Below are positions 2,589 through 20,527 of a stretch of DNA of 64,000 bases, piece after piece. Positions within the stretch are counted from its first letter, which is position 1, and every line of letters begins with the position of its first letter. Source of the stretch: a virus (Duplodnaviria; Caudoviricetes); IMG/VR virus record IMGVR_UViG_3300034101_006325, positions 96,001 to 160,000 of that record. One strand, 5' to 3'. A program made the position numbers and the translations under genes. The notes beneath the pieces were generated by a model. It was not told where the DNA came from. It saw nothing but the letters and a program-made list of their open reading frames with translations, and ran no database searches.

Positions 2589-4799
2589 TCAGGGATTTGG
2601 GTCTGCGTTGTGAATGACCACTGTGAGGCGGTCGTCTGCCATTGTGGAGACCTCGAGGTCGAGCTCTGTCACGCTGGTGATCTCGTAGTCGTCGCCGTAT
2701 GCAAGGCGCACGCCGTTGAGATAGACGTCCATTGCAACCTTCTTTGCAGCTGCGTCAGCAATTGATGCTGTGCGAAGTGTTCCAACAGAGCTGAAGTCGA
2801 TTGCAACGCCAGCAGCTACAACTCCTGGGAGGAATGAATCCTGCTTGAAGTTGCCGCCGCCGCCTGCTGCGACGATTGCCTGGACGAGCGTCATGCCGGG
2901 GAACTGAGCGTCGAAATCTGCCCAATCGCCCGATTCCATGAAGCTGATTCCTGTCTCGCCGTCGGCTGCAAGGAAGAGCTCTCCACCAGAAGAACCTGCC
3001 TGGAGGATGAGGTCCTTGCCGCTTTCTGCTGAAAGTTTTGCGCCTGATGCATCAGCTGCGAATGAACCGCTCTGTGCACCCTCGAGGGCGCCGACCTTGA
3101 TCTCTGACATCCATGCTGGGACGAGTTCTGCGCCGTTGACGCCAACGCTGTTGTCGCCATCGACGTCAGCGTGGTCTGGTGATGTGTGTGCGAGCTTGGC
3201 GAAGACGAACTCACCAGCTCCGCCGTCCTGAGCAAGCATTAGGTCTGCCGAAGCGCCTGCACCGCCGTGGAGGACGATACCGGAGTTTTCAGCGCCTGTG
3301 CTACCAGTTGCGAGGTGGATGAATGCATCTTGCACCTTGAGGTTTGTTGTCTCGATGTAGGTCATTGCGCCCTTGACATAGAGATCACCAGCAACGTGGA
3401 CGTCACTCTTGAAGAATGCGTCGTCGCCGTTGAGCTCGAGGACGACGTTTCCTGCCGATGACTTGAGTTCGTTGCCCATCAACTTGAGGTCGCCAGCGAT
3501 TGTGACGTCGCCACCGCTCTCGAGGGTGATGTTGAGGCCAGCCGAACCCGAGATGTCGTTGCCAGCAACCTTGAGGTCGCCGCTTGCTTCAACGATATCG
3601 CCAGTGAGAAGTAGCGTTCCTGCTGTTGCGCTGGAGATCGACATGCTGTTCGAGAGAGTGATGTCTCCGCCCTTGACTTCGAGGTCAGACTGAAGCTCGA
3701 GTGAACCCGACACGTAGAGGAGCGACTGGTCGAACCAGAGCTTGGCTTCGTCCTTGATTGATCCATCTTCGTCGACAATGTAGAGACGCTTAGCAACGTC
3801 GTTGTCGATCGAGACCTTCTTTACAGTGAGGTCGCCGTCGACGTCGAGGTCGCCGGTGAACGAACCGCTCACTGCTGAGAGGTCGCCGGTGAGTGTCACG
3901 TTGACTGCGTCGATGTCCTGAGCAACTGTGAGTGAGCCGCTGACGCCGAGGTTAGCTGCCATGAAGACGTCTGACTGGAAGTCTGCAACGCCGTCGACGT
4001 TGAGCGTGCTGTCGAAGTCAACAGCCTGTGTCACTCCCATTGTTCCTGAGACCTCGAGGCGATCTCCTGCAACTGTGAGGCCTTGAGCAACTTCCATTGC
4101 GCCGCTGACGTAAAGGTCAGCTGCCATATAGACGTCTGCAGCGAAGTCAGAAACTCCGTTTACAGCGAGTGTACCGCTGAGTCCTGTTGCGCCTGCCACG
4201 TAAAGAGCACCGAGGTCGGCGGTGCCTGATACGTCGAGGGCTCCAGTGATGTCGAGCGAGTCATTGCTGAAGATTAGTTTTCCTTCTTCAGCGATTTCGC
4301 CTGCTCCACCGACGAGGTAGAGGGCGCCTGCTGGGGCGTCGCCATCGATCTTGATGACCGAAGCTGAGAGCGTGCCATCCACATCGACGATTGCTCCTGT
4401 GAAATGTGCGTCGCCGCCGACATCGAGTGTGCTCTGGAGGTTGACTGCACCCTGGAAGTCAGCTGAGCTGTTGACATCGAGATCGCCACCGAGCTGCATG
4501 CCTGCTGAGCCTGTGATGGCTGCATCGAATGTTGCAACGCCTGTGACGTCGAGTGTTCCTTGGAAGTCTGCATTTGCACCGGACATGTGCACTGCTGCAT
4601 AGATGTCTGCGAGGTCCTGTGAACCGCTGAGTGCATCGTACCAGTTTGTTCCACCGATGATCTTGTTGATCTGTGAACGGAGGGCGTCGAGGTCGCCTAC
4701 GAGTGTCTGCTTGTATGCAAGGCTGGAGCCTGCTGCCAATGTATCATTAAATTCTAATGAACCACTAATTTGTGATTGCTGAACAAATGTCTTTGCCAT
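2589..4799 (-). CDS. Virion fibre / beta-solenoid structural protein
   Basis: 736 aa with imperfect ~18-residue repeats (LDVTGVATFD, LDVNSSADFQ, LAVNGVSDFA, LNVDGVADFQ); C-terminal VYLNGVRL..GDDY module; SD AAAGGA; GC-rich codon style like the capsid gene. Confidence 0.7.
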   Translation of the reverse strand: MAKTFVQQSQISGSLEFNDTLAAGSSLAYKQTLVGDLDALRSQINKIIGGTNWYDALSGSQDLADIYAAVHMSGANADFQGTLDVTGVATFDAAITGSAGMQLGGDLDVNSSADFQGAVNLQSTLDVGGDAHFTGAIVDVDGTLSASVIKIDGDAPAGALYLVGGAGEIAEEGKLIFSNDSLDITGALDVSGTADLGALYVAGATGLSGTLAVNGVSDFAADVYMAADLYVSGAMEVAQGLTVAGDRLEVSGTMGVTQAVDFDSTLNVDGVADFQSDVFMAANLGVSGSLTVAQDIDAVNVTLTGDLSAVSGSFTGDLDVDGDLTVKKVSIDNDVAKRLYIVDEDGSIKDEAKLWFDQSLLYVSGSLELQSDLEVKGGDITLSNSMSISSATAGTLLLTGDIVEASGDLKVAGNDISGSAGLNITLESGGDVTIAGDLKLMGNELKSSAGNVVLELNGDDAFFKSDVHVAGDLYVKGAMTYIETTNLKVQDAFIHLATGSTGAENSGIVLHGGAGASADLMLAQDGGAGEFVFAKLAHTSPDHADVDGDNSVGVNGAELVPAWMSEIKVGALEGAQSGSFAADASGAKLSAESGKDLILQAGSSGGELFLAADGETGISFMESGDWADFDAQFPGMTLVQAIVAAGGGGNFKQDSFLPGVVAAGVAIDFSSVGTLRTASIADAAAKKVAMDVYLNGVRLAYGDDYEITSVTELDLEVSTMADDRLTVVIHNADPNP

Positions 4800-7853: not shown

Positions 7854-7877
7854 AATAACCTCTATTATACTATATAG

Positions 7878-8249
7878 TGGAGTCAACCGGTACTGCCCCG
7901 GTGTCCGAAATTTCTTTTTAATTAACTTCTTCACAGACTTGGAATGATTTTATCGACGTCATCCTAGTCTATTCAATCTGACCTCTTTTACGACCGGTCG
8001 GATCAAAACCCGTTAGTCGTCTTCCGGAACCACCTTCCGAGAGAAACCCACCTCATACAGTGAGGATAACCATTGGTTGTGACTTTCTGTTTCTAGGTTG
8101 TCACAAAACCAACCAGTCAGGCCGCTAGGTTGACTGGGACATAGCCGTTATCGTTGGCAATTGTACGTCACTTGGATTTTTACCAGGTTCCTCGTGCACC
8201 TGGGTCTGCATTAATTAATCAAAAACTCCGTCGAAACTATATTGACCCC
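7878..8249 (-). ncRNA. ssrA: tmRNA (transfer-messenger RNA), one-piece, 372 nt
   Basis: 5' GGGGUCA pairs with 3' UGACUCC-A giving a G3.U wobble; UUUCGACGG near the 5' end; T-arm ACCGG-GGCAGUA-CCGGU; PK1-like CCAGGU/ACCUGG-UAAAAA; tag ORF 8158-8117 encodes ANDNGYVPVNLAA*; hairpin CCAGUCA/UGACUGG encloses the tag stop. Confidence 0.95.
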
Positions 8250-11646: not shown

Positions 11647-12129
11647 ATGAACATCTTTGTACTCAACGAAGATCCTGTACAAGCTGCAAAAGATCAATGC
11701 GACAAACACGTCGTAAAAATGATACTTGAAAGTGGACAAATGTTGTGTGCTGCACACGAACCAGGACTATCGCCATGGAAGAGAACACACTACAATCATC
11801 CTTGCACTATTTGGACTAGATCATCGAAAGAAAACTATCGATGGTTGGCAGTGCACGGTCTTGAACTTTGTGCTGAATACACCCGACGCTACGGGCGGAG
11901 ACACAAGGCCGAGGATGTTTTGATCTGGTGTGCTGAAAATGTTCCTGAAAGTGTGCCCGATGTGCCTCAAACTCCCTTTACAGTAGCAATTAAAAATCCA
12001 GATTATCATAAGGACAATGCTGTCGACTCTTACAGGGCATATTACCTAGGTGAAAAAATTAGATTCGCTAAGTGGAAGTATTGTCCCCCGCCGAAGTGGT
12101 GGATCGATGCGCTTTCTTCCGCAAAATAA
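11647..12129 (+). CDS. Pyrimidine-dimer DNA glycosylase-like protein (Pyr_excise family)
   Basis: MNIF.L..DP..AA...CDKHVVKMILES.QMLC; H.NHPC.IW; ELC.EYT.RYG..H; FAKWK...P.WW. Confidence 0.75.
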   Translation: MNIFVLNEDPVQAAKDQCDKHVVKMILESGQMLCAAHEPGLSPWKRTHYNHPCTIWTRSSKENYRWLAVHGLELCAEYTRRYGRRHKAEDVLIWCAENVPESVPDVPQTPFTVAIKNPDYHKDNAVDSYRAYYLGEKIRFAKWKYCPPPKWWIDALSSAK

Positions 12130-12427
12130 GGGGATTTTCCTTAATTTTCCAAAATTGTTGCTCAAGAGGAGGAATTTCACCTCTCCTAAAAAACATCAGC
12201 TTTCTGCCATTTGTAGAATCATAGACGCCTATGATCGTAATCTCACCAGCATGTATTAGATCATGGCAAATATGACAGACTATACTTAAATTATGATTAT
12301 CATTGGTGCATCTAGGATCGCACCGAGGAATAATGTGATGAATGTTGAGAGCGGAAGGATTGTCATAACCGCAAATTTCACATTTGTCTTTTTTAAGTTT
12401 TGTCTGTTGACTATGACGTCTCTTCAC
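12068..12427 (-). CDS. HNH endonuclease
   Basis: CEIC...HHIIP...N..NL..VCHICHDLIH; GTG start. Confidence 0.8.
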   Translation of the reverse strand: MKRRHSQQTKLKKDKCEICGYDNPSALNIHHIIPRCDPRCTNDNHNLSIVCHICHDLIHAGEITIIGVYDSTNGRKLMFFRRGEIPPLEQQFWKIKENPLILRKKAHRSTTSAGDNTST

Positions 12428-12459
12428 GCTGACAATAATACAGCATCAAAATATCTTCA

Positions 12460-13017
12460 TCACAAAATTCTCAATATTTCGTGACACTTATCCTGAATAC
12501 TCTTGGGAAGCATCCTGGAAAACATTTCCACATCATTTAATGCAATAAATCTTCTCATGTCCGTTCCGGACACATTAGGTGTTTTAGATCCCCTCTTTAT
12601 TCCCATTCTTATTATTTGCCCGCTGTCGAAAAGCTTAGGTGCCTGTTTTCGCAAATTGACAGGAGTGAATCTAGAAATATCCTCAGAGTCTGAGTAAATT
12701 GTATGCACATCGTATGAGTAATTTTTCTCAGCTCGATTCAACGTATTAAAAACCATGGTCACAGGAGTGACTGGTGGGTCAGCATAAATTACTTCAACAT
12801 TGCCGAGCAGCCTTAAAGACGGCTTTACAAACTTTTCCATAACAATTCTCATCTTGTCACCCTGAATCGACAGCTCTCCTTTTCGAGGCCTGTCTGCTGT
12901 GGAGGCAAAAACAAGGACCTCGTCATTTTCAGAAGAAGCTAGACGAACAAGAGCATCATGACCTGCATGGTAAGGTTTGAAACTTCCAGGAATCAATCCA
13001 ATTCTTTTTGAGTTCAT
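12460..13017 (-). CDS. HIGH-superfamily nucleotidyltransferase (cytidylyltransferase/NMNAT-like)
   Basis: IGLIPGSFKPYHAGH and VSGTDMR motifs; start moved to ATG 13017 to remove the overlap with the upstream gene. Confidence 0.75.
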   Translation of the reverse strand: MNSKRIGLIPGSFKPYHAGHDALVRLASSENDEVLVFASTADRPRKGELSIQGDKMRIVMEKFVKPSLRLLGNVEVIYADPPVTPVTMVFNTLNRAEKNYSYDVHTIYSDSEDISRFTPVNLRKQAPKLFDSGQIIRMGIKRGSKTPNVSGTDMRRFIALNDVEMFSRMLPKSIQDKCHEILRIL

Positions 13018-13028
13018 TATTAAATAAA

Positions 13029-14408
13029 TCAAACTGGGCTTTGGTTCACAATGCCAGAAATCCACTGGCCTGAATAAAATTCCTCGACTCTTAGACGGTC
13101 ACCTTTTGAAACTGCAAATGCCACTGCTGCTCCGGCTGCTGCAGAAGTAGAATTTGCAGACTGTCCAGGTACATCATTGCCAGTCGCTGGATCGAATCCT
13201 ACAACAGATCCATCTGATTTTACACCACCAAACCATCCTGTCTTTGTGTAGCCATTACCCATCACATATATCCAATTTGAATTTCCAGGCGTTCCATCAG
13301 GCCAGCCAGACCTTTCCAGCGGTGTCTTGGGTGTGTCGCCATGGACTGTAAAGACTAAATTATCTGCGAGAGTCTTGTTGGAACATGTCGGATCAGAGAT
13401 TCCTGATAAATCACTCATAAACATGTCTAAAATCAATCCTAAATGATCGACAGTCTGCAAGAGGCTGCCCATGTCGGCAAAAGCACCGTGCGGATCATCT
13501 CTAAAAACAGGCGCAATTACACAGGAAGTTAAACCAAGCTTGAATGCCTTTGACGTGGTAATTAAAGTCTTTGCTAGCTCTCTGAGCTTATTAGGTGTAG
13601 AAACTGTAACACCATAACGGGACAGATCATCCTGGGATGGTTCTAATAATGCCGCCAAATTCTTTCCTAGGAAATTAGCACTCTTTTTTCCAATATTTAA
13701 CGGTCGCTGCACAGTGGATCTAGTCGAAGCAGAGTTTAGTCCAAGGAACGCCTTGTAGTATGCTTCAAAAAGTTTGGAATCCTGTTCGACTTCGAGTATT
13801 GAACGACTGGCAGCACTGTTGAACAGCTGAACCATTCCATCAGCATTTCCTACAGTTGTAAGTTGAGGAGAACCGGGCGCAGTGCCAAAGGCAACAGGGG
13901 TAATTCCAATGACAGGAATTAAGGTCGGATTTGCCCTTTGTATCGACGAACAGACGGCCATCATGCTTTGTCCTGCTCCGACGGTTGCAGAAGAACCAGG
14001 CGTCGGTGTGTGAGTCTGGTTTACTCCTGCCATGAAAGCCGATATTCTTTTTGTCCTGTCTTTGTTTTTCCAAGGAGATTGTGGGACATGATACAAGGTT
14101 TTGTCAGCATCGTCTGCCTTGACCTGCTGACCCTGAGCATGAAATGCAAAATTGGAATTTGTGGAAGTTGCAACTTCATTGTGAGGCCAAAGTAGCTGGA
14201 ACCATGCAAAGCCTCCATCACCGGCGACCAAATGGACGGATCTAAGAGTTGTAGAACAAGTGGCTTCGTCGGCCAATGCTGTTCCTGCTGTATCATTAAT
14301 TACGTTGAGAACCTGAGATCTATCAAGAGCCAATGCTGCGCCGGCTGCTGCAGTCCATCTCAAAAATTTTCTTCTAGATTCACCTCGTAAATTCTTTAGA
14401 TCCGACAT
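13029..14408 (-). CDS. Tat-exported protein, DUF1501/DUF1552-type partner of a cytochrome cassette
   Basis: Twin-arginine signal SRRKFLRW followed by hydrophobic AAAGAALAL; last gene of a three-gene operon. Confidence 0.6.
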   Translation of the reverse strand: MSDLKNLRGESRRKFLRWTAAAGAALALDRSQVLNVINDTAGTALADEATCSTTLRSVHLVAGDGGFAWFQLLWPHNEVATSTNSNFAFHAQGQQVKADDADKTLYHVPQSPWKNKDRTKRISAFMAGVNQTHTPTPGSSATVGAGQSMMAVCSSIQRANPTLIPVIGITPVAFGTAPGSPQLTTVGNADGMVQLFNSAASRSILEVEQDSKLFEAYYKAFLGLNSASTRSTVQRPLNIGKKSANFLGKNLAALLEPSQDDLSRYGVTVSTPNKLRELAKTLITTSKAFKLGLTSCVIAPVFRDDPHGAFADMGSLLQTVDHLGLILDMFMSDLSGISDPTCSNKTLADNLVFTVHGDTPKTPLERSGWPDGTPGNSNWIYVMGNGYTKTGWFGGVKSDGSVVGFDPATGNDVPGQSANSTSAAAGAAVAFAVSKGDRLRVEEFYSGQWISGIVNQSPV

Positions 14409-14426
14409 AATTCTTTCCTTTCAATA

Positions 14427-15152
14427 TCACTCGCAAGAATGTGCGGCCGACAATATGACAGCAACAGCTATTGACTTGCCTTTTTCAGGTGTTGAAGCAC
14501 TATTCACAATATCTGTACAAATTGCAAGATGCTGAGAAGTAGCAGGTCTGCCAAGAAGACATGTGACAGCAGGCTCGGTGCACCAATCATTTTGGTCAAA
14601 TACAGAAGTGCCAACACCATCTTCTTGACACTGTTGCAGACCAGGCATGGCTGTAATTATCTCTGATGATGCTTGAACAAAAATATCAAACTGTTTTGCT
14701 GCACCTGAGGACGTCCAAACGATTGACTCTCCCACGCGAGCATCATAAACAGCACCTCCGAGAGCTGCTGATCCTTCAGAAAAAAGCTGTCCTGCAGTTG
14801 GTGGATCTGCTGTTAATGTCATGTTCACACCAAATTCTTCCAGAATATTTCGAAGTGTCGCCACAGGAATCTTCTGACAGGAATGAAGTCTAGTCCTAAT
14901 CTCTGGTGGTCCTTCCTCCTGCCGCTGGGCCAATACTGTCATAGGATCCTTGCTGCCATCTTCACCCAAGCCGGACATATGATCAAATGTATTGTCTTCA
15001 TCACCTGTATAATCATCATCAGGAGGAGGATCTTCAGGGCTATCGACAGGTGGATCTTCCTTTGGTGGAATTAAACCGTTTGGTGGATCAATTCCACAGG
15101 ATGCATTAAGGAAAACCAATGGGAGGATCAAAAATAATCTTTTGTAATTCAT
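14427..15152 (-). CDS. Cys-rich putative lipoprotein
   Basis: Signal peptide MNYKRLFLILPLVFLNAS-C; Pro/Asp linker; multiple Cys. Confidence 0.65.
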   Translation of the reverse strand: MNYKRLFLILPLVFLNASCGIDPPNGLIPPKEDPPVDSPEDPPPDDDYTGDEDNTFDHMSGLGEDGSKDPMTVLAQRQEEGPPEIRTRLHSCQKIPVATLRNILEEFGVNMTLTADPPTAGQLFSEGSAALGGAVYDARVGESIVWTSSGAAKQFDIFVQASSEIITAMPGLQQCQEDGVGTSVFDQNDWCTEPAVTCLLGRPATSQHLAICTDIVNSASTPEKGKSIAVAVILSAAHSCE

Positions 15153-15167
15153 ACTGTTTTACCTGCA

Positions 15168-16334
15168 TCAGAAATTTACGAAATCTTCATGCTTAAACAT
15201 AAAACGAAGTGTCTCCTTGACGTCCATGCCAGATGACTCGTACTTTTTAACGAGAGGATCTAGCACGGAAGGCGGGATTGTCGCAAGGTCATTGACAACG
15301 TCTTCCTTTGACATCACCATGTTCCACAAACGAGTGACCACGCAATCTGAGACAAGAGGATCGTCTGCAATTGCTGCACCTAAGGCAGGAAGATCATTTG
15401 CTTCAATTCCAAACCTCCACGCAGTCTTTTCTCCACCATTCAACCAATGACTCATCTCAGACTTAATAGGATCTGGCAGGACGGGTGTGTTGACCTGACT
15501 TTGGCTCGTCCACATGCCATTTTCATCAAAATTAGCAAACAATGGCGCAATATGGTTCATAGTCGCGTGACAATTGGCACAAACAACGGACTGTGTGTCT
15601 CTAAAATCAATAGGAGAATTAGAAATTGATTCGAACGACCAAGGAGAAATATAATCCTTTCCTTCTATTTTCTGAGGATCTTTTGTGGATTCTGCAGGAA
15701 ACTTTTGACACATAAACACCTCCTGCATCCAACGGACTCTTCTAAATGCCATGTTGCTGTAAAACTGCTTCATCGAACCAGGATTGGTCAAAACACCTGA
15801 ATGAACTTCGACGCCATTATCACAATCCCCATCCACGAAGGCTCCATCTGAAAAGCTGGGACAAGTTCCCTGTGTTGCAGTGAAAATATCTGTAAAAGGC
15901 CGCCCTTCAACGGAAACTCTAGCAACAAATACAGGAGAAAAATCTAATTCTTGGGAACCACCTTGACGAAGAGTATCTCTCCAAAATTTTACCATCCGAC
16001 CAGCAAAGCGAGGATCGTCCAGCAAAGAATCTACTTCTAGTTCATATGCAGCCTTTTTGTCGTCAGCATTTTGAACACGTCTAATTTGACTCAAAGGAGG
16101 AAGTGTCCTGACCAGCTTTAAAGATGCTGTTCTCAATGCAGCATTATAATCCAAAATTCTGTCATCCAAAACGGACGACTTAGCAGACTCACCTCCGACG
16201 CCCGAAGCTGTAGAAGATTCGTCTGCGGTTCCTCCGGGGTCGCCTCCGTAGCTTCCTGTCCCAAATCCTGACGGTTCTTCGGTGCAGGCTGATAAAACCA
16301 AAAAAGACGCCAAATATTTGCATAACCTCTTCAT
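15168..16334 (-). CDS. Putative lipoprotein c-type cytochrome (DUF1549/DUF1553/DUF1588-like)
   Basis: Lipobox LSA-C; heme-attachment motif CANCH (15567-15581); GVLTNPG and AFRRVRW segments. Confidence 0.65.
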   Translation of the reverse strand: MKRLCKYLASFLVLSACTEEPSGFGTGSYGGDPGGTADESSTASGVGGESAKSSVLDDRILDYNAALRTASLKLVRTLPPLSQIRRVQNADDKKAAYELEVDSLLDDPRFAGRMVKFWRDTLRQGGSQELDFSPVFVARVSVEGRPFTDIFTATQGTCPSFSDGAFVDGDCDNGVEVHSGVLTNPGSMKQFYSNMAFRRVRWMQEVFMCQKFPAESTKDPQKIEGKDYISPWSFESISNSPIDFRDTQSVVCANCHATMNHIAPLFANFDENGMWTSQSQVNTPVLPDPIKSEMSHWLNGGEKTAWRFGIEANDLPALGAAIADDPLVSDCVVTRLWNMVMSKEDVVNDLATIPPSVLDPLVKKYESSGMDVKETLRFMFKHEDFVNF

Positions 16335-16340
16335 AACAAC

Positions 16341-16370
16341 ATACTACATATGCCCAAAGAAAAGGTACAA
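16341..16370 (-). promoter_or_regulatory. Host sigma70-type promoter giving a predicted leaderless mRNA
   Basis: TTGTAC-N18-TAGTAT-N6-ATG(16334); no SD. Confidence 0.55.
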
Positions 16371-16397
16371 TATTTATTTAATTCAAATAGGAATAAG

Positions 16398-16799
16398 TCA
16401 ACCTGTGCTGTCGGTATAAGAGCCTGGTGGATCAGTGACTCTCCGCTGAGTTTCAGTCGCAGGCCCTTTGTAGGTCTCTAGCATACGTCTCAGAGTCTTC
16501 ACGATGGCATCGTAACCAACTACAGAAACTCCACCAGATGTTGTATAGGCGAGAATTGATCCAGCCAATGTCTCGCCAAATGCCTTTGGAACAGGCAGAC
16601 CATACTTGAAACCAACAATGCCAGTCAATGCGCCAACAATCAGCGCATGCAATGGCAAAGTTGCCCAGTAAATTCTTCGCCAGCCAACATGTGCATCAGT
16701 TTCTCTTCGTCTATTACCTAGGATCAAATTACGAACAACCTGCCCACACATACCTATGATGAATGGAACTACTCCAAGTATGATCAGCCAATCCTGCAT
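16398..16799 (-). CDS. Small membrane protein, holin-like
   Basis: About three hydrophobic segments in 133 aa with a charged C-terminus. Confidence 0.5.
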   Translation of the reverse strand: MQDWLIILGVVPFIIGMCGQVVRNLILGNRRRETDAHVGWRRIYWATLPLHALIVGALTGIVGFKYGLPVPKAFGETLAGSILAYTTSGGVSVVGYDAIVKTLRRMLETYKGPATETQRRVTDPPGSYTDSTG

Positions 16800-16846
16800 A
16801 CTTTGTAATTATCAACTGCAAATCTAAAGCTTTAGATAATTCGATC

Positions 16847-17065
16847 CTACTTCTTCTTTTTCATCGTCTTCTTAGCATCAGCTGTTCCGTGCTTCACGGC
16901 GTCTGCTCTAGGCTCTCCAGAGGCAATTCTTCTGGCAATCATCACGTCTGCAAAATCATTCTTACCGTCTTTATTGAGGTCATCCTTGCCTTCAGCCTCT
17001 GACATCTCAACCTCAGTGACTACCTCTCTAATAATTCTTCTTAATTCGCTTATGCTGATCTTCAT
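16847..17065 (-). CDS. Small protein with shared N-terminal motif and a DxNxDG loop
   Basis: MKISISELRRIIREVVTEV; DLNKDGKNDFAD. Confidence 0.7.
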   Translation of the reverse strand: MKISISELRRIIREVVTEVEMSEAEGKDDLNKDGKNDFADVMIARRIASGEPRADAVKHGTADAKKTMKKKK

Positions 17066-17088
17066 GTGATTTAATTATTAATTAAATT

Positions 17089-18522
17089 TTATTCTTTTAG
17101 ACTAATAAGCATAATTGACGAACCACAGCCATAGATGCGTGAAACTCCGGCAGAAAATGCCACTTGTTTTTCAGACTTTCCGTCAGAAGCCCTAAATTTA
17201 AATCTGTCATACCTTAATTCATTATCAGTGTACCAGTAATCAGGGCCGGTCGATCCAACTAGTTCAAAACCAGCAGATAGATAACCCTTTCCTGTGCCAA
17301 TTCTCCTGTCGACGTAGGTCATAATACTAACAAAACCATTAATCTTGGCCCATGTCTTTGCTGTCTTTAAAAGCTTTGAAAGTGCACCAGGAACTGAAAT
17401 TCCAGGTAGGTTACTGAAACGAGCAATCTCGATAGAATTTTCATACTTTGTTGCGTGACGAGGAACCCTGAGCGACAATGCTGAAACGACGTCTCCTCTT
17501 CTATCTTTCAAACCCCAGCATATTTTAGCAGGTGTATAACCTGATACATGGGATATATTAAAGAAACTTCGCTGTTCATCTGATCCCAGCTCAACGACAC
17601 GTGTGGACCAAGTTTTACATTTCTTTGAATGAAGTCCAAGACGGTGCTGAATCATAGATTCGACAATTGGTCTTTTGTCTCTCCACTCATCCTCAAAAAT
17701 TTGGAATAAATCTATATTTTTTTCCTCAGCAAGTCTGGCTTTCAGCTGATGAGAACTTTTGTCAAATTCATCTTCTGGTTTTCCTGCCTCACTATGCCAA
17801 TACAAACCATGACATTCTATTCCAAATTTTTTGGTAGGCACATACACGTCAATTTCTTTTGGTGACAAGGCAGATCGATCTCCGCTTATTGCATCCTTCG
17901 ATATTGACTTTACATAGTTGTACACATCTAATTCCCAATTAGATTTTCCGACAGGATAACACTTGTAGCATCTACTTCCTCGCTCGAATGCTTGCAATGT
18001 TTTTGGTTGACTTTCACCGCATTTGACGCATTCAAATAACAAATACTGCTGTTGACGTGATCTATACTCGTCAAGAGGCGTCAATAATTTAAATTCTCCT
18101 GACCTCTGAATAATTCTTTCTTCAATCGAAGTAGTTGCCAAGGTTTTGCTTGTTGATATTTTCTGTAATGTCTCCTGGGTATGCCTACGGCCGTAAAAAT
18201 GATTCCCACTGCCCGACATTTTGAATGCCTGCAAAGCTATTCTTTCATCGGTAGTTTTGTCCTTTCCTTTGTTCCAAGCTTCTGCATGACCACCTATGGC
18301 ACCCCCTTCTTTCATTGCCAATCTTGAATGGTCCTTGCAATACTTCTTGAAGGTGAATGAAACATATCTAACTTGATTGCCGCATTCAGCGCAAGTTGGT
18401 TTAATGTCATCATGTAAGACTTTAATTGTGTATTCTTCAGAACTTAAACCGTGAGAAGTCTTGACATGGTCAGAGAATCTCTTTAAATCATCGTTATGAT
18501 AACTACACAGCTTACAATCCAT
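17089..18522 (-). CDS. Hef-like homing endonuclease (Zn fingers, NUMOD3, PD-(D/E)xK, C-terminal GNAT/Mom-like domain)
   Basis: CKLC..H..H and CAEC..C Zn motifs; GSGNHFYGRRHTQETLQKIS (NUMOD3); EIDVYVP...GIECHGLYWH; TYVDRRIGTGKGY. Confidence 0.7.
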   Translation of the reverse strand: MDCKLCSYHNDDLKRFSDHVKTSHGLSSEEYTIKVLHDDIKPTCAECGNQVRYVSFTFKKYCKDHSRLAMKEGGAIGGHAEAWNKGKDKTTDERIALQAFKMSGSGNHFYGRRHTQETLQKISTSKTLATTSIEERIIQRSGEFKLLTPLDEYRSRQQQYLLFECVKCGESQPKTLQAFERGSRCYKCYPVGKSNWELDVYNYVKSISKDAISGDRSALSPKEIDVYVPTKKFGIECHGLYWHSEAGKPEDEFDKSSHQLKARLAEEKNIDLFQIFEDEWRDKRPIVESMIQHRLGLHSKKCKTWSTRVVELGSDEQRSFFNISHVSGYTPAKICWGLKDRRGDVVSALSLRVPRHATKYENSIEIARFSNLPGISVPGALSKLLKTAKTWAKINGFVSIMTYVDRRIGTGKGYLSAGFELVGSTGPDYWYTDNELRYDRFKFRASDGKSEKQVAFSAGVSRIYGCGSSIMLISLKE

Positions 18523-18634: not shown

Positions 18635-20527
18635 TCAGATGATGTTCATGTCAAGCACAGTCACAGTTCCGTAGAAGTCGCTACGAACTGTCTTCTTACC
18701 GTAGCGAGTCATCACGCCCTTACGTGGTGTGAAATCTTCAGGTGCGAAGATTGTTGGTGTCACGATGAGTGGAACGTATGGTGCGTACACGTAGCCTGTC
18801 TCGAGGTAGCTGCCGCCCTTGTAGCCAACGAGGATCTTGTTACGAACGAAGTAGGGATCCTTGTAGACCGTGAAGCGGTTGCTGATTGTGCCGATTGCCT
18901 CTGCACCGATTGTGAATGGTGAAGCAACCTGACCCTCGCCGTCGATCGAGAACTTGGGCTTGTAGAGGACCGAGCTCTCGAGGATTGTTGCAACGTCTGG
19001 GCCTGTGACGAGGAAGTTCGCCGAGCCGCGGAGTGTCTTGCGGTGGATTGTGTTGGCGACGTCGATGATTGTCTCGACGAGTGTCTCGTACCACTCACGG
19101 ACTGTACCTGTGAAGGCTGGGCCGATTGAGAGGGCCGAGGCGAGCGAGACCGATTGACCTGTTGTCTTGTTCACGAATTTGCCGGGAGCGCGTGACCAGT
19201 AGTAGTTGGCGCCGTTGGCCTGTGTGACGAGGTCGTTGAGGATCTCGCGATCGATCTCGAGGGCGATCTGCTCCGAGAGGATCGAGGTGAGCTCAACCTC
19301 TGCGTCCATCGAGTGATAGGCGTTGAGGTCCTGTGCGAGCTCTGGTGACCAGCGAGCACGGAGCTTGCGGGTCTCGGCTGTGATTGCAATCGACTCGATC
19401 TTGATGTCGATCTCGGGGATTGCAGGAGCAGGTGTTGAACCAAAGTCCGACTCGAACGATGGAACTGTGACTGTTGCTCCGCTGTTCTGATCAACAGTGA
19501 GACCTGTTGAGATGGCGAACGAGAGCTTTGCGGTCGCTGTTGTTGGAAGGTTTGTGGCTCCATTTGCGCCCTTGAGGAGGAACTGGAGGTAGTTGCCGTT
19601 GAGTGCGTCTGGGACGAACTTGAGGCTTGCACCTGTTCCTGTGAGTGTTCCGCGCTTGTTTGCGCGGCGGAGGTTGAGCACACCTGTTCCACCTTGGTAA
19701 CTGTCTCCCCATGCTGTTGCATTTGTCACCGCGCCGTTGAAGAGCGAGAACTGCTGAACTGCAGTGAGGTCAGCTGCTGGCTCTGCTGCAACAACAACTG
19801 ATGTTGGCACGTAGAGGAAGAGAACGTCGAGGTCGTTGTTTGTGAGGGCTGTCTCGACCTGAGCATCGAAGTCCACCAAGCGAGCGTTTGATCCACTGAA
19901 TGATGTTCCGAGTCCAAGCACCGTGCCATCCGACCATGTTGTTCCATCTGCACCGAGGTATGAACCCGAGTAGACTGTTCCTACTGTGAGGTCGAGTGGC
20001 GAAACCGAACCTGTGACGCGTGAGTAACCTGTGCCAACGAGATCGTACATACCGCCTGTTGCGAGCGATCCGCTCTGCACGCCTTTGCCGCGTGGATTGT
20101 TATAGATCGAATCACCGCGTGTGTATGTCGAGTTGGTGTCGCCTGCAACCTGACCAACATTGCTGCCGTATGTATAGTCGAGGTAGAAGATGAGTCCTGA
20201 GGGGAGGCTCATTGGCTGGATCGAAACGAGCTCGTTGGCAACGAGGCCACCGAACACGCGGCGAACGATTGGGAAGGCGATGTTGCTGAAGCCTTGAATC
20301 TGTCCGCTGCCAACGATGTTGCCGCCGCCGGTCGAGAGAGCATTGCTCTCCTTAAGGACCTGTGCTGCCTGGTTCTCGAGGAGCTGTGCCATTGTCTCGC
20401 GGCGTGAGCCGTCGAGGCCACGGAGGAGGCCTGTGCGGCTCCACTTCTCTGTCAAACGGGCGCGCTCAGCACCGACGTGCTTCTCGCGGATGCCCTGTGC
20501 TAACTGATCTAATGTAAAGTTCTTCAT
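18635..20527 (-). CDS. gp23: Major capsid protein, T4 gp23-like
   Basis: AQLLENQ; FPIVRRVF..LVANELVSIQPM..PSGLIFYLDY; AETRKLRARWSPELAQDLNAYH..DAE.ELTSILSEQIALEIDREI; YAPYVPL; PRKGVMTRYG; SD AGGAG; long central insertion. Confidence 0.95.
   Translation of the reverse strand: MKNFTLDQLAQGIREKHVGAERARLTEKWSRTGLLRGLDGSRRETMAQLLENQAAQVLKESNALSTGGGNIVGSGQIQGFSNIAFPIVRRVFGGLVANELVSIQPMSLPSGLIFYLDYTYGSNVGQVAGDTNSTYTRGDSIYNNPRGKGVQSGSLATGGMYDLVGTGYSRVTGSVSPLDLTVGTVYSGSYLGADGTTWSDGTVLGLGTSFSGSNARLVDFDAQVETALTNNDLDVLFLYVPTSVVVAAEPAADLTAVQQFSLFNGAVTNATAWGDSYQGGTGVLNLRRANKRGTLTGTGASLKFVPDALNGNYLQFLLKGANGATNLPTTATAKLSFAISTGLTVDQNSGATVTVPSFESDFGSTPAPAIPEIDIKIESIAITAETRKLRARWSPELAQDLNAYHSMDAEVELTSILSEQIALEIDREILNDLVTQANGANYYWSRAPGKFVNKTTGQSVSLASALSIGPAFTGTVREWYETLVETIIDVANTIHRKTLRGSANFLVTGPDVATILESSVLYKPKFSIDGEGQVASPFTIGAEAIGTISNRFTVYKDPYFVRNKILVGYKGGSYLETGYVYAPYVPLIVTPTIFAPEDFTPRKGVMTRYGKKTVRSDFYGTVTVLDMNII

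What the first reader, a model, noticed from the sequence alone, without database searches (positions are those of the whole stretch)
13029..16370. Phage-borne cell-envelope cassette: CxxCH cytochrome lipoprotein, second lipoprotein and Tat substrate
This is a compact three-gene operon with its own sigma70-type promoter. Gene 1 has a lipobox and a CANCH heme motif, gene 2 is a Cys-rich lipoprotein, and gene 3 has a twin-arginine signal. The architecture matches the uncharacterised DUF1549/1553 + DUF1501 and DUF1588/1592 + DUF1552 operons of Planctomycetota and Myxococcota, and from memory the proteins resemble Sorangium/Polyangium ones. All three need host machinery (Sec, Lgt, cytochrome c maturation, Tat). 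The DNA is far less GC-rich than such hosts, implying long residence in the phage, yet the frames and signals are intact. A phage-encoded c-type cytochrome complex of unknown function is very unusual. It may alter envelope redox or surface properties, or block superinfection or predation, and it points to a myxobacterial host.
Basis: partly seen in the sequence, partly recalled or inferred. Interest (0 to 1): 0.85.

Follow-up and report, generated by a model that had tools for sequence, protein, structure and literature searches.

The report
Phage-borne myxobacterial heme-lipoprotein envelope cassette
A large freshwater T4-like phage carries three genes captured long ago from Polyangiaceae myxobacteria that likely build a membrane-anchored periplasmic heme-protein/phosphatase-fold complex of unknown chemistry, giving a compact handle on a long-unexplained bacterial gene module.

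Summary
The three genes are real and lie on the minus strand of a 200-kb T4-like phage record. g1 (15168-16334) is a lipoprotein with Pfam PSCyt2 and PSCyt3 matches and an invariant CANCH heme motif. g2 (14427-15152) is a lipoprotein with six conserved cysteines. g3 (13029-14408) is a Tat-signal protein with an alkaline-phosphatase-superfamily fold and is remotely related to DUF1552.

All cellular homologs found are Myxococcota. The phage copies form one clade nested inside Polyangiaceae. Third-position GC matches the phage, synonymous sites are saturated, and dN/dS is at most 0.09, so the cassette is old, functional cargo. Contigs from independent lake and virome runs bridge both junctions, which rules out an assembly chimera.

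- The bacterial operon has four genes. Its leading two-heme cytochrome lipoprotein is absent from the phages.
- Complex prediction supports g3 docking on g2.
- The claimed sigma-70 promoter is not supported.

The chemistry is unknown. I think the cassette is an auxiliary gene set that keeps the host's own periplasmic heme-linked enzyme running during infection. This scan already reported a related cassette in another phage genome (e1-5319013).

The parts
15168..16334 (-). g1: 388-aa lipoprotein. It has a signal peptide with lipobox LSAC (Cys17), a disordered Gly/Ser-rich tether to about residue 50, and a helical PSCyt2/PSCyt3 domain with one c-type heme motif, CANCH, at 252-256.
   Evidence: Pfam PF07583 29.9 bits (cut-off 29.8) and PF07627 28.8 bits (cut-off 27). 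CANCH, Cys17 and the FRRVRW motif are invariant or nearly so. AF2 pLDDT is 84.5, with residues 1-50 below 50. Foldseek matches AFDB DUF1549/1592/1585/1588 clusters at E 1e-14 to 1e-7, TM 0.55-0.62. No solved relative was found.
14427..15152 (-). g2: 241-aa lipoprotein (Cys19) with a Pro-rich tether and a domain holding six invariant cysteines. It is the predicted docking subunit for g3.
   Evidence: No Pfam, NCBIfam or PHROG family. Invariant C92, C175, C191, C198, C212 and C240, plus the RTRLHSCQK motif. The Atlas model resembles parts of large PSCyt/PSD proteins at TM 0.45-0.51, which is only a lead. It supplies most of the predicted contacts with g3.
13029..14408 (-). g3: 459-aa Tat-signal protein (SRRKFL) with an alkaline-phosphatase/sulfatase-superfamily fold. 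It is a remote relative of DUF1552 (HXXSHH) and DUF1501. A helical insert at about 184-247 is predicted to bind g2.
   Evidence: AF2 pLDDT 87.1. VIA-align Z 11.4 to PafA 5too (rmsd 4.7, 268 aligned), and all 50 listed entries are alkaline-phosphatase-superfamily members. AFDB DUF1501/DUF1552 clusters at E 1e-9. hhalign to a DUF1552 profile gives 95.5% probability, E 1.4e-8, 332 columns. No Pfam hit for it or for its distant relatives. Family-wide conserved residues are G65, H133, S198, D305-P306-H307, G357-D358, K361, W369 and D371.
16335..16397 (-). 63-nt gap upstream of g1. This is the only sizeable non-coding gap in the block, so a promoter is possible but not supported.
   Evidence: Sequence read. 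No site passed the sigma-70 scan. No TATAAATA motif is present.
16398..16799 (-). Neighbouring 133-aa membrane protein, phage-specific. It occupies the position where bacteria have the two-heme cytochrome gene. It is not shown to belong to the cassette.
   Evidence: It is syntenic in L084 (77% identity) and in the 188-kb relative (132-aa gene). No homolog lies beside the bacterial operons. No Pfam or PHROG family. Its Atlas neighbours are viral clusters, with a weak holin lead at score 0.84.

Best explanation
The cassette is an old auxiliary gene set. An ancestor of this freshwater T4-like phage lineage captured it once from a Polyangiaceae bacterium, and the phages have kept it under strong purifying selection.

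Shown or predicted: it encodes three exported proteins. g3 is folded in the cytoplasm, leaves through Tat, and docks through a helical insert onto the lipoprotein g2, which tethers it to a membrane. g1 is a second tethered lipoprotein that needs host cytochrome c maturation to receive one covalent heme.

Inferred: in bacteria the same three proteins are made with a fourth, a two-heme cytochrome c lipoprotein. This suggests a periplasmic heme-linked enzyme wired to the respiratory chain. The phage does not carry that fourth gene. I infer that its three proteins plug into the host's own two-heme partner and keep, or boost, this envelope activity after host gene expression is shut down. The likely benefit is to the energy or nutrient supply for making about 200 kb of phage DNA per virion.

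Unknown: the substrate and the chemistry.
For: - Phage context. The flanks carry Gp23 major capsid, T4 portal, T4-type terminase, a homing endonuclease and a DenV-like gene. The record is a 200,303-bp virus record.
- Same cassette in related phage contigs, next to Gp23.
- Both junctions are bridged by contigs at least 99% identical from independent runs, including a viral metagenome.
- Donor lineage. All 80 kept genome loci (of 181 that encode a relative) are Myxococcota or carry unresolved 'delta proteobacterium' labels, and none bears the name of another phylum. The phage rows form one clade (support 100) nested in a Polyangiaceae clade (support 97) in the g3 tree. The g1 and g2 trees place them with the same uncultured Polyangiaceae group (support 97 and 61).
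- Age and selection. GC3 matches the phage. Between phage copies dS is above 1.9 or not computable, dN is 0.08-0.27, and dN/dS is 0.03-0.09 where computable.
- Export signals and the heme motif are conserved.
- Four-gene bacterial operon. The upstream gene is present in 67 loci and has two CxxCH motifs in 54 of 65. It is absent from the phage record.
- Complex prediction. ipSAE was 0.85 against a best control of 0.42. That mark was reached by 58 of 80 solved complexes and 2 of 110 mismatched pairs. The three runs share at least 83% of contacts, and partner pLDDT is at least 89. My own alignments and three chains were used, so the calibration holds only roughly.
- The pass is not from memory: no solved relative exists for any chain by sequence or fold beyond the general alkaline-phosphatase fold.
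- The interface uses the most conserved motifs of g2 and the stretch of g3 that was poorly ordered in the monomer model.
Against: - No expression, heme attachment, binding or activity has been measured.
- The canonical alkaline-phosphatase metal-ligand Asp after the first strand is not conserved across the g3 family (N22, T10, G7, D6 of 58 rows), although the phage protein has Asp64. The nucleophile position is also not invariant, so g3 may not be a classical hydrolase or may not be catalytic.
- Few confident contacts involve g1, so a three-way complex is not supported.
- The host is unproven. Phage GC is 39.5%, against 53-74% for the bacterial loci, and the phage carries no tRNA genes.
- The idea that the phage proteins use the host's two-heme cytochrome is pure inference.
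Confidence: 0.55

Rival explanations
1. Nutrient scavenging without redox. g3, held at the membrane by g2, is an active phosphatase, phosphodiesterase or sulfatase-type hydrolase that frees phosphate or sulfate for phage synthesis, as pstS and phoA are thought to do in cyanophages. The heme protein would be a sensor or accessory.
For: - The alkaline-phosphatase-superfamily fold is robust: PafA, ENPP6/7 and sulfatases score Z 10-11.4.
- The conserved H133, D305/H307 and D358 follow core strands 123-129, 296-301 and 351-357. That is where this superfamily places its metal site (established knowledge of the fold).
- Known Tat-exported phosphatases PhoD and PhoX are a precedent (my own knowledge).
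Against: - The first-strand Asp and the nucleophile position are not conserved family-wide.
- The module is always linked to one or three hemes in bacteria, which a plain hydrolase would not need.
- No activity data exist for any DUF1501 or DUF1552 protein (PMC3542564, PMC5615132).
Confidence: 0.2
2. Neofunctionalised envelope modifier. The phage proteins no longer do the host job but mask a receptor, block superinfection or alter the surface, as small phage lipoproteins such as T5 Llp do.
For: - Two of the three products are lipoproteins.
- The cassette lacks the fourth bacterial gene.
- The stem leading to the phage clade is long, 0.35 changes per site.
Against: - Every family-invariant residue, the heme motif, the Tat signal and all six cysteines are kept.
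- dN/dS is 0.03-0.09 across all three genes.
- Three genes of 1,088 codons are far more than known exclusion lipoproteins need.
- The g2-g3 interface motifs are the same as in bacteria.
Confidence: 0.12
3. Assembly chimera or host contamination: a bacterial fragment wrongly joined into a phage contig.
For: All homologs outside this phage group are bacterial.
Against: - GC3 is 0.29-0.38, like the phage and unlike any bacterial copy.
- The same cassette sits in the same place in other phage contigs.
- Contigs from a virome and from lake metagenomes of other studies span 12000-15029, 12489-13440, 15583-17076 and 16232-16887, with 0-5 differences each.
Confidence: 0.01
4. Decaying passenger DNA with no role for the phage.
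For: One IMG/VR contig (L084) has a GAA-to-TAA change in the tether of g2.
Against: - The frames are intact in the window, L002, L085 and the 188-kb contig.
- At least eight phage-type g3 clusters at 83-93% identity are all full length, 459 aa.
- dS is saturated while dN stays low.
Confidence: 0.03

Closest known systems
PSCyt3/PSD proteins (DUF1585, 1587, 1588, 1592, 1595) paired with Tat-exported DUF1552 (PF07586, HXXSHH) in Planctomycetota, Verrucomicrobiota and Myxococcota. Function unknown (PMC5615132).
   Same: A heme-motif helical protein sits next to a Tat-exported alkaline-phosphatase-fold protein. g1 passes the PSCyt3 threshold. g3 aligns to a DUF1552 profile at 95.5% probability. 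Minicystis rosea carries 8 DUF1552 genes besides its g3 ortholog.
   Different: g1 is only 388 aa and lacks the PSD domains. g3 does not match the Pfam model and has DDPHGAF where HXXSHH aligns. An extra lipoprotein, g2, lies between the two genes. The cassette is carried by a phage.
PSCyt1/PSCyt2/PSD1 (DUF1549/DUF1553) plus DUF1501 (PF07394) modules of the PVC superphylum, including four-gene forms (Kamneva et al. 2012, PMC3542564).
   Same: g1 passes the PSCyt2 threshold over its N-terminal part. The g3 model matches DUF1501 AlphaFold clusters at E 1e-9. The paper infers membrane targeting and electron transport from the same signals (Tat, signal peptides, CxxCH).
   Different: There is no Pfam DUF1501 match, and hhalign to my DUF1501 set was weak (16.7%, with a poor alignment). 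There is no PSD1 domain. The lineage is Myxococcota, not PVC.
The four-gene Polyangia operon (two-heme cytochrome c lipoprotein, g1, g2, g3), for example Polyangium aurulentum CP079217 (L001 6745-11386).
   Same: Orthologous genes in the same order at 55-67% identity. This is the source of the cassette.
   Different: The phage lacks the first gene, has GC3 of 0.3 instead of 0.9, and has a phage membrane protein upstream instead.
Redox and nutrient auxiliary metabolic genes of T4-like cyanophages (petE, petF, PTOX, pstS, phoA). Cited from my own knowledge, not checked here.
   Same: Host-derived genes kept under purifying selection in T4-like phages, thought to sustain host physiology during infection.
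   Different: Those are single genes of known function. This is a three-subunit exported module of unknown function that needs the Sec, Lgt/Lsp, Tat and cytochrome c maturation machinery. It has no match in 50,697 GenBank phage records.

Membership tests
PSCyt2 / DUF1549 (PF07583) | Match to the Pfam model at or above the gathering score | tested here: met
   29.9 bits against a cut-off of 29.8, but only profile positions 22-88 of 209. 31.5 bits in the six-frame search. A marginal, partial match.
PSCyt3 / DUF1588 (PF07627) | Match to the Pfam model at or above the gathering score, with the CxxCH motif | tested here: met
   28.8 bits against a cut-off of 27, profile positions 3-96 of 98, residues 180-277. 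CANCH 252-256 is invariant.
PSCyt/PSD protein fold | Structural similarity to predicted models of DUF1549, DUF1592, DUF1585 and DUF1588 proteins | tested here: met
   Foldseek against AFDB clusters: E 9.8e-14 to 5e-7, TM 0.52-0.62 over residues about 60-388. Both sides are predicted models.
c-type cytochrome | Covalently bound heme at CxxCH | not testable with these tools
   Only the motif and its conservation are shown. The distal ligand was not identified.
DUF1552 / HXXSHH (PF07586) | Match to the Pfam model | tested here: not met
   No hit even at E 10. The Minicystis rosea ortholog is not among that genome's 8 PF07586 matches.
DUF1552 / HXXSHH (PF07586) | Remote homology by profile-profile comparison | tested here: met
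   hhalign of A3 against 8 M. rosea DUF1552 proteins: probability 95.5%, E 1.4e-8, 332 columns. g3 has DDPHGAF at the place of the HXXSHH region.
DUF1501 (PF07394) | Match to the Pfam model or to a family profile | tested here: inconclusive
   No Pfam hit. hhalign gave 16.7% with a poorly trimmed 8-sequence set. Fold-level matches to DUF1501 clusters at E 1e-9.
Alkaline phosphatase superfamily | Core alpha/beta fold | tested here: met
   Z 11.4 (5too, rmsd 4.7, 268 aligned), 11.3 (5ege), 11.1 (5udy). All 50 listed entries belong to this superfamily. Foldseek against the PDB is weaker, E 9e-4.
Alkaline phosphatase superfamily | Conserved metal-ligand Asp after strand 1 and a Ser/Thr/formylglycine nucleophile | tested here: inconclusive
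   Position 64 is Asp in the phage and its close relatives, but N22/T10/G7/D6 across 58 family members. T132 is kept in 41/58 and T134 in 35/58. H133, D305, H307 and D358 are kept. Model coordinates could not be inspected.
Tat substrate | S/T-R-R-x-F-L-K motif before a hydrophobic stretch | tested here: met
   SRRKFLRWTAAAGAALAL. R12 and R13 are invariant. 82 of 82 homologs carry an RR motif. Pfam TAT_signal is sub-threshold at 18.6 against 22.7.
Bacterial lipoprotein | Signal peptide ending in a lipobox [LVI][ASTVI][GAS]C | tested here: met
   g1 has L-S-A-C with Cys17 conserved. g2 has N-A-S-C, with an atypical -3 residue but an invariant Cys19. No dedicated predictor was available.
Phage auxiliary (host-derived) gene | Lies inside a phage genome, derives from cellular genes, and is kept under selection | tested here: met
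   Expression during infection was not tested.

The most novel reading that the evidence does not exclude
This phage lineage carries a working, minimal three-subunit version of the unexplained 'planctomycete cytochrome plus DUF1501/DUF1552' machinery. In it the small lipoprotein g2 is a previously unrecognised obligatory anchor that binds a helical insert of the phosphatase-fold subunit. The phage uses the complex, wired to the host's two-heme cytochrome, to reprogram periplasmic redox-linked metabolism of Polyangiaceae during infection. If true, this would be the first auxiliary gene set of this class, the first T4-like phages assigned to Polyangiaceae, and a tractable entry point to the function of the whole superfamily.
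Probability: 0.3. Interest if true: 0.75.

Novelty: new variant of a known kind. Interest (0 to 1): 0.6.

Why it matters
- PSCyt plus DUF1501/DUF1552 modules are abundant in Planctomycetota, Verrucomicrobiota, Myxococcota and others. They have been flagged as important but unexplained since 2004-2012 (PMC3542564, PMC5615132).
- A phage has kept a pared-down version: three small proteins with no extra domains. Selection in a streamlined genome argues that these three genes form a functional core. That gives a compact set to express, purify and solve.
- The predicted g2-g3 contact is a concrete, testable subunit arrangement.
- The cassette points to Polyangiaceae as the probable host of an uncultured, widespread lake phage lineage.
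- It adds an exported, multi-subunit, cofactor-dependent module to the known range of phage auxiliary genes.

Tried and rejected
- DNA search of the cassette against GenBank phages: no match.
- PHROG and NCBIfam searches: no family for any of the three genes.
- Pfam on ten distant g3 relatives: nothing.
It was repeated with A4.
- Three IMG/VR scans with g3, g1 and g2 profiles found only the same two contigs. I therefore could not confirm the earlier agent's statement that related phages captured a distant version independently.
- Two large contigs holding 66-70% identical g3 copies (208 kb and 204 kb) turned out to be bacterial, with four-gene operons.
- Foldseek and VIA-align of g1 against the PDB gave no meaningful match (best Z 4.9).
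- Profile searches of all three families against PDB sequences matched only Tat-signal look-alikes.
- Host inference from tmRNA was uninformative. The phage tag is ANDNGYVPVNLAA, read. Polyangia tags are ANDNALALAA or ANDSTYAVAA. The shared ANDN start is common.
- T4 late-promoter motif search: none upstream of the cassette or of the other late genes.
- Sequencing runs: no RNA holder was listed, so expression could not be addressed.
- My first ORF picking for the DUF1501/DUF1552 sets chose wrong-strand frames in the GC-rich DNA and was redone from the match frames. The DUF1501 set stayed poor.
- Literature searches for a function of DUF1501, DUF1552 or DUF1549, and for phage c-type cytochromes or Polyangiaceae phages, gave no functional data.


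Full report
**What is there.** Three ORFs lie head to tail on the minus strand: g1 15168-16334 (388 aa), g2 14427-15152 (241 aa) and g3 13029-14408 (459 aa). The gaps between them are 15 and 18 nt, and a 63-nt gap lies upstream of g1.
- g1 starts with a signal peptide ending L-S-A-C and carries CANCH at 252-256.
- g2 starts with a signal peptide ending N-A-S-C.
- g3 starts with S-R-R-K-F-L followed by an Ala-rich hydrophobic stretch.

No site passes the scan in the upstream gap, and the region has no excess of promoter-like sites (10 found against 7.6 expected). No T4-type late motif is present either.

**Context.** The window is bases 96001-160000 of a 200,303-bp virus record. The flanks are plainly phage:
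- T4 Gp23 major capsid protein at 18635-20527 (Pfam E 1.6e-77);
- a homing endonuclease at 17089-18522;
- a DenV-like glycosylase and a cytidylyltransferase downstream of the cassette;
- a T4-type portal, a terminase and a Rad50-like protein further on.

The capsid protein is only 31-48% identical to any GenBank phage.

**Not an artefact.**
- The same three genes, in the same order and next to Gp23, occur in a 188.5-kb JGI contig, a 52-kb ENA contig (L002) and two IMG/VR contigs (L084, L085).
- The 5.5-kb stretch that includes both junctions is held by runs from 17 studies of lake, freshwater, aquatic and viral metagenomes.
- I laid four runs, leaving out the possible source sample. Contigs from a viral metagenome cover 12000-15029 and 15583-17076. 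Contigs from another study cover 12489-13440 and 16232-16887. Each has 0-5 differences.
- GC3 of the three genes is 0.29-0.38, like the phage (genome median 0.31). The Polyangium aurulentum orthologs have 0.87-0.96.

**Origin.**
- Each protein has hundreds to more than a thousand homologs. A small group at 70-97% identity sits on phage-like contigs. Everything else is at most 70% identical and, where named, is Polyangium, Byssovorax, Minicystis or Polyangiaceae.
- In one genome per species, 181 loci encode a g3 relative. All 80 kept are Myxococcota, mostly class Polyangia, or carry unresolved 'delta proteobacterium' labels.
- In the g3 tree the four phage rows form one clade (support 100, stem 0.35). 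It is nested in a 44-row Polyangiaceae clade (support 97), with the Kofleriaceae/Sandaracinaceae-containing clade on the far side of the midpoint root.
- The g1 tree (support 97) and the g2 tree (support 61) place the phage clade with the same group of uncultured Polyangiaceae, which includes a Lake Erken genome.
- The three genes therefore came together, once, from a Polyangiaceae donor.

**Selection.** Between phage copies the nucleotide identity is 64-78%. Synonymous sites are saturated (dS above 1.9 or not computable), dN is 0.08-0.27, and dN/dS is 0.03-0.09 where it can be computed. At least eight phage-type g3 clusters at 83-93% identity are all 459 aa long.

**What the proteins are.**
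- g1 passes the Pfam thresholds for PSCyt2/DUF1549 and PSCyt3/DUF1588, both narrowly. Its model (pLDDT 84.5) has a disordered 50-residue tether and a helical domain. That domain matches AlphaFold clusters named DUF1549, DUF1592, DUF1585, DUF1588 and 'Planctomycete cytochrome C'. Nothing in the PDB resembles it. CANCH, the lipobox Cys and four other cysteines are invariant or nearly so.
- g2 has no family. It has six invariant cysteines and an RTRLHSCQK motif. Its Atlas model weakly resembles pieces of large PSCyt/PSD proteins (TM 0.45-0.51, a lead only).
- g3 has no Pfam hit, and neither do its distant relatives. Only 331 representative clusters match it in 1.8 billion proteins. Its model (pLDDT 87) has the alkaline-phosphatase-superfamily fold, with Z 11.4 to PafA and all 50 listed entries in that superfamily. 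The nearest AlphaFold clusters are DUF1501 and DUF1552. A profile of the family aligns to Minicystis DUF1552 proteins at 95.5% probability.

Conserved polar residues of g3 (H133, D305, H307, D358, K361, D371) follow the core strands, which is where this superfamily builds its active site. However, the usual first-strand Asp and the nucleophile are not conserved across the family. Catalysis is therefore plausible but not classical.

**The bacterial operon has a fourth gene.** In 67 loci a protein of about 400 aa sits directly upstream of g1.
- In Polyangium aurulentum it has a lipobox and two CxxCH motifs, with weak cytochrome c Pfam hits.
- 54 of 65 homologs have two CxxCH motifs.
- No other neighbour is conserved beyond close relatives.
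- The 200-kb phage record has no homolog of it (the record is estimated 61% complete). None of the phage loci has one beside the cassette.
- In its place the phages have a phage-specific 133-aa membrane protein.

**Complex prediction.** I folded the mature parts of g1, g2 and g3 together and scored g3 as the partner.
- ipSAE was 0.85 (runs 0.84-0.88) against a best control of 0.42. That control kept g2 and replaced g1.
- The mark was reached by 58 of 80 solved complexes and 2 of 110 mismatched pairs in the tool's calibration.
- The runs agree in at least 83% of contacts, and partner pLDDT is at least 89.
- The counts hold only roughly, because my own alignments and three chains were used.
- Almost all confident contacts are between g2 (its conserved motifs at 86-94, 145-160 and 205-240) and g3 residues 184-247. 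That helical insert had only pLDDT 55-71 in the monomer model.
- Only four g1 residues touch g3.
- No similar complex has been solved, so the pass is not from memory. It remains a prediction, not a measurement.

**How it most likely works.**
- Shown: the signals, the conservation, the origin, the selection and the fold.
- Predicted: g2 anchors g3.
- Inferred: g1 carries one heme; in bacteria the system passes electrons through the two-heme lipoprotein; and the phage trio relies on the host's copy of that partner to keep the activity going during infection.

[quoted passage not shown] Rival readings are scored in the Rival explanations section: a plain hydrolase for nutrient scavenging, an exclusion or surface factor, passenger DNA, and an assembly chimera.

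**Host.** The donor lineage suggests a Polyangiaceae host.
- The phage GC (39.5%) is well below that of the bacterial loci (53-74%, median 68%). From my own knowledge, gaps of about 20 points are usual for T4-like cyanophages and their Synechococcus hosts. The gap therefore weakens the inference only slightly.
- The phage has no tRNA genes.
- Its tmRNA tag is uninformative.

**Novelty.** No GenBank phage encodes a relative of g1 or g3, and IMG/VR holds only two other contigs. I found no paper describing such a phage cassette. This scan had already reported a related cassette in another phage genome (e1-5319013), with the same general reading. Within the scan this is therefore a second, independent confirmation rather than a first discovery.

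Noticed in passing
window 7875-8249 (-): A full-length one-piece tmRNA gene: Rfam RF00023, 73.7 bits, E 8.8e-27. ARAGORN does not call it. Read by eye, the tag is ANDNGYVPVNLAA.
   Followed up: partly
whole phage record; window 18635-20527, 2589-4799: GC3 is strongly uneven. The median is 0.31, but the major capsid gene has 0.64, a 736-aa gene 0.61, the 1185-aa gene that first-reader notes of this genome call DnaE 0.68, and a block of large genes 0.46-0.59. There are no tRNA genes in 200 kb. This could be selection for GC-ending codons in a GC-rich host, or mosaic ancestry.
   Followed up: partly
L084 about 9355 (IMGVR_UViG_3300009160_000114) against L085: A single GAA-to-TAA difference puts a stop codon in the Pro-rich tether of g2 in one phage contig. 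The other contig is otherwise identical over the 241 bases compared and over the shared g2 and g3 coding sequence. It is either a variant that has lost g2 or a sequencing error.
   Followed up: partly
window 16398-16799 (-): A 133-aa multi-pass membrane protein found only in phages and conserved upstream of the cassette in three phages. It has a weak holin-like lead (Atlas score 0.84 to a cluster with Phage_holin_5_2 in 25% of members).
   Followed up: partly
window 17089-18522 (-): A 477-aa homing endonuclease (PHROG 3339/559, E 1e-66) lies between the capsid gene and the cassette. The 188-kb relative has different genes there, so this interval varies between phages.
   Followed up: no
L009/L076, L010/L071, L011/L033/L042, L020/L029, L026/L034, L056/L059: Several Polyangia genomes carry two or three diverged copies of the four-gene operon. 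Minicystis rosea also has 8 DUF1501 and 8 DUF1552 genes.
   Followed up: no
window 12460-13065 (-): The listed GTG start of the cytidylyltransferase-like ORF overlaps the end of g3 by 37 nt. An in-frame ATG 16 codons downstream (MNSKRIG...) would remove the overlap.
   Followed up: no
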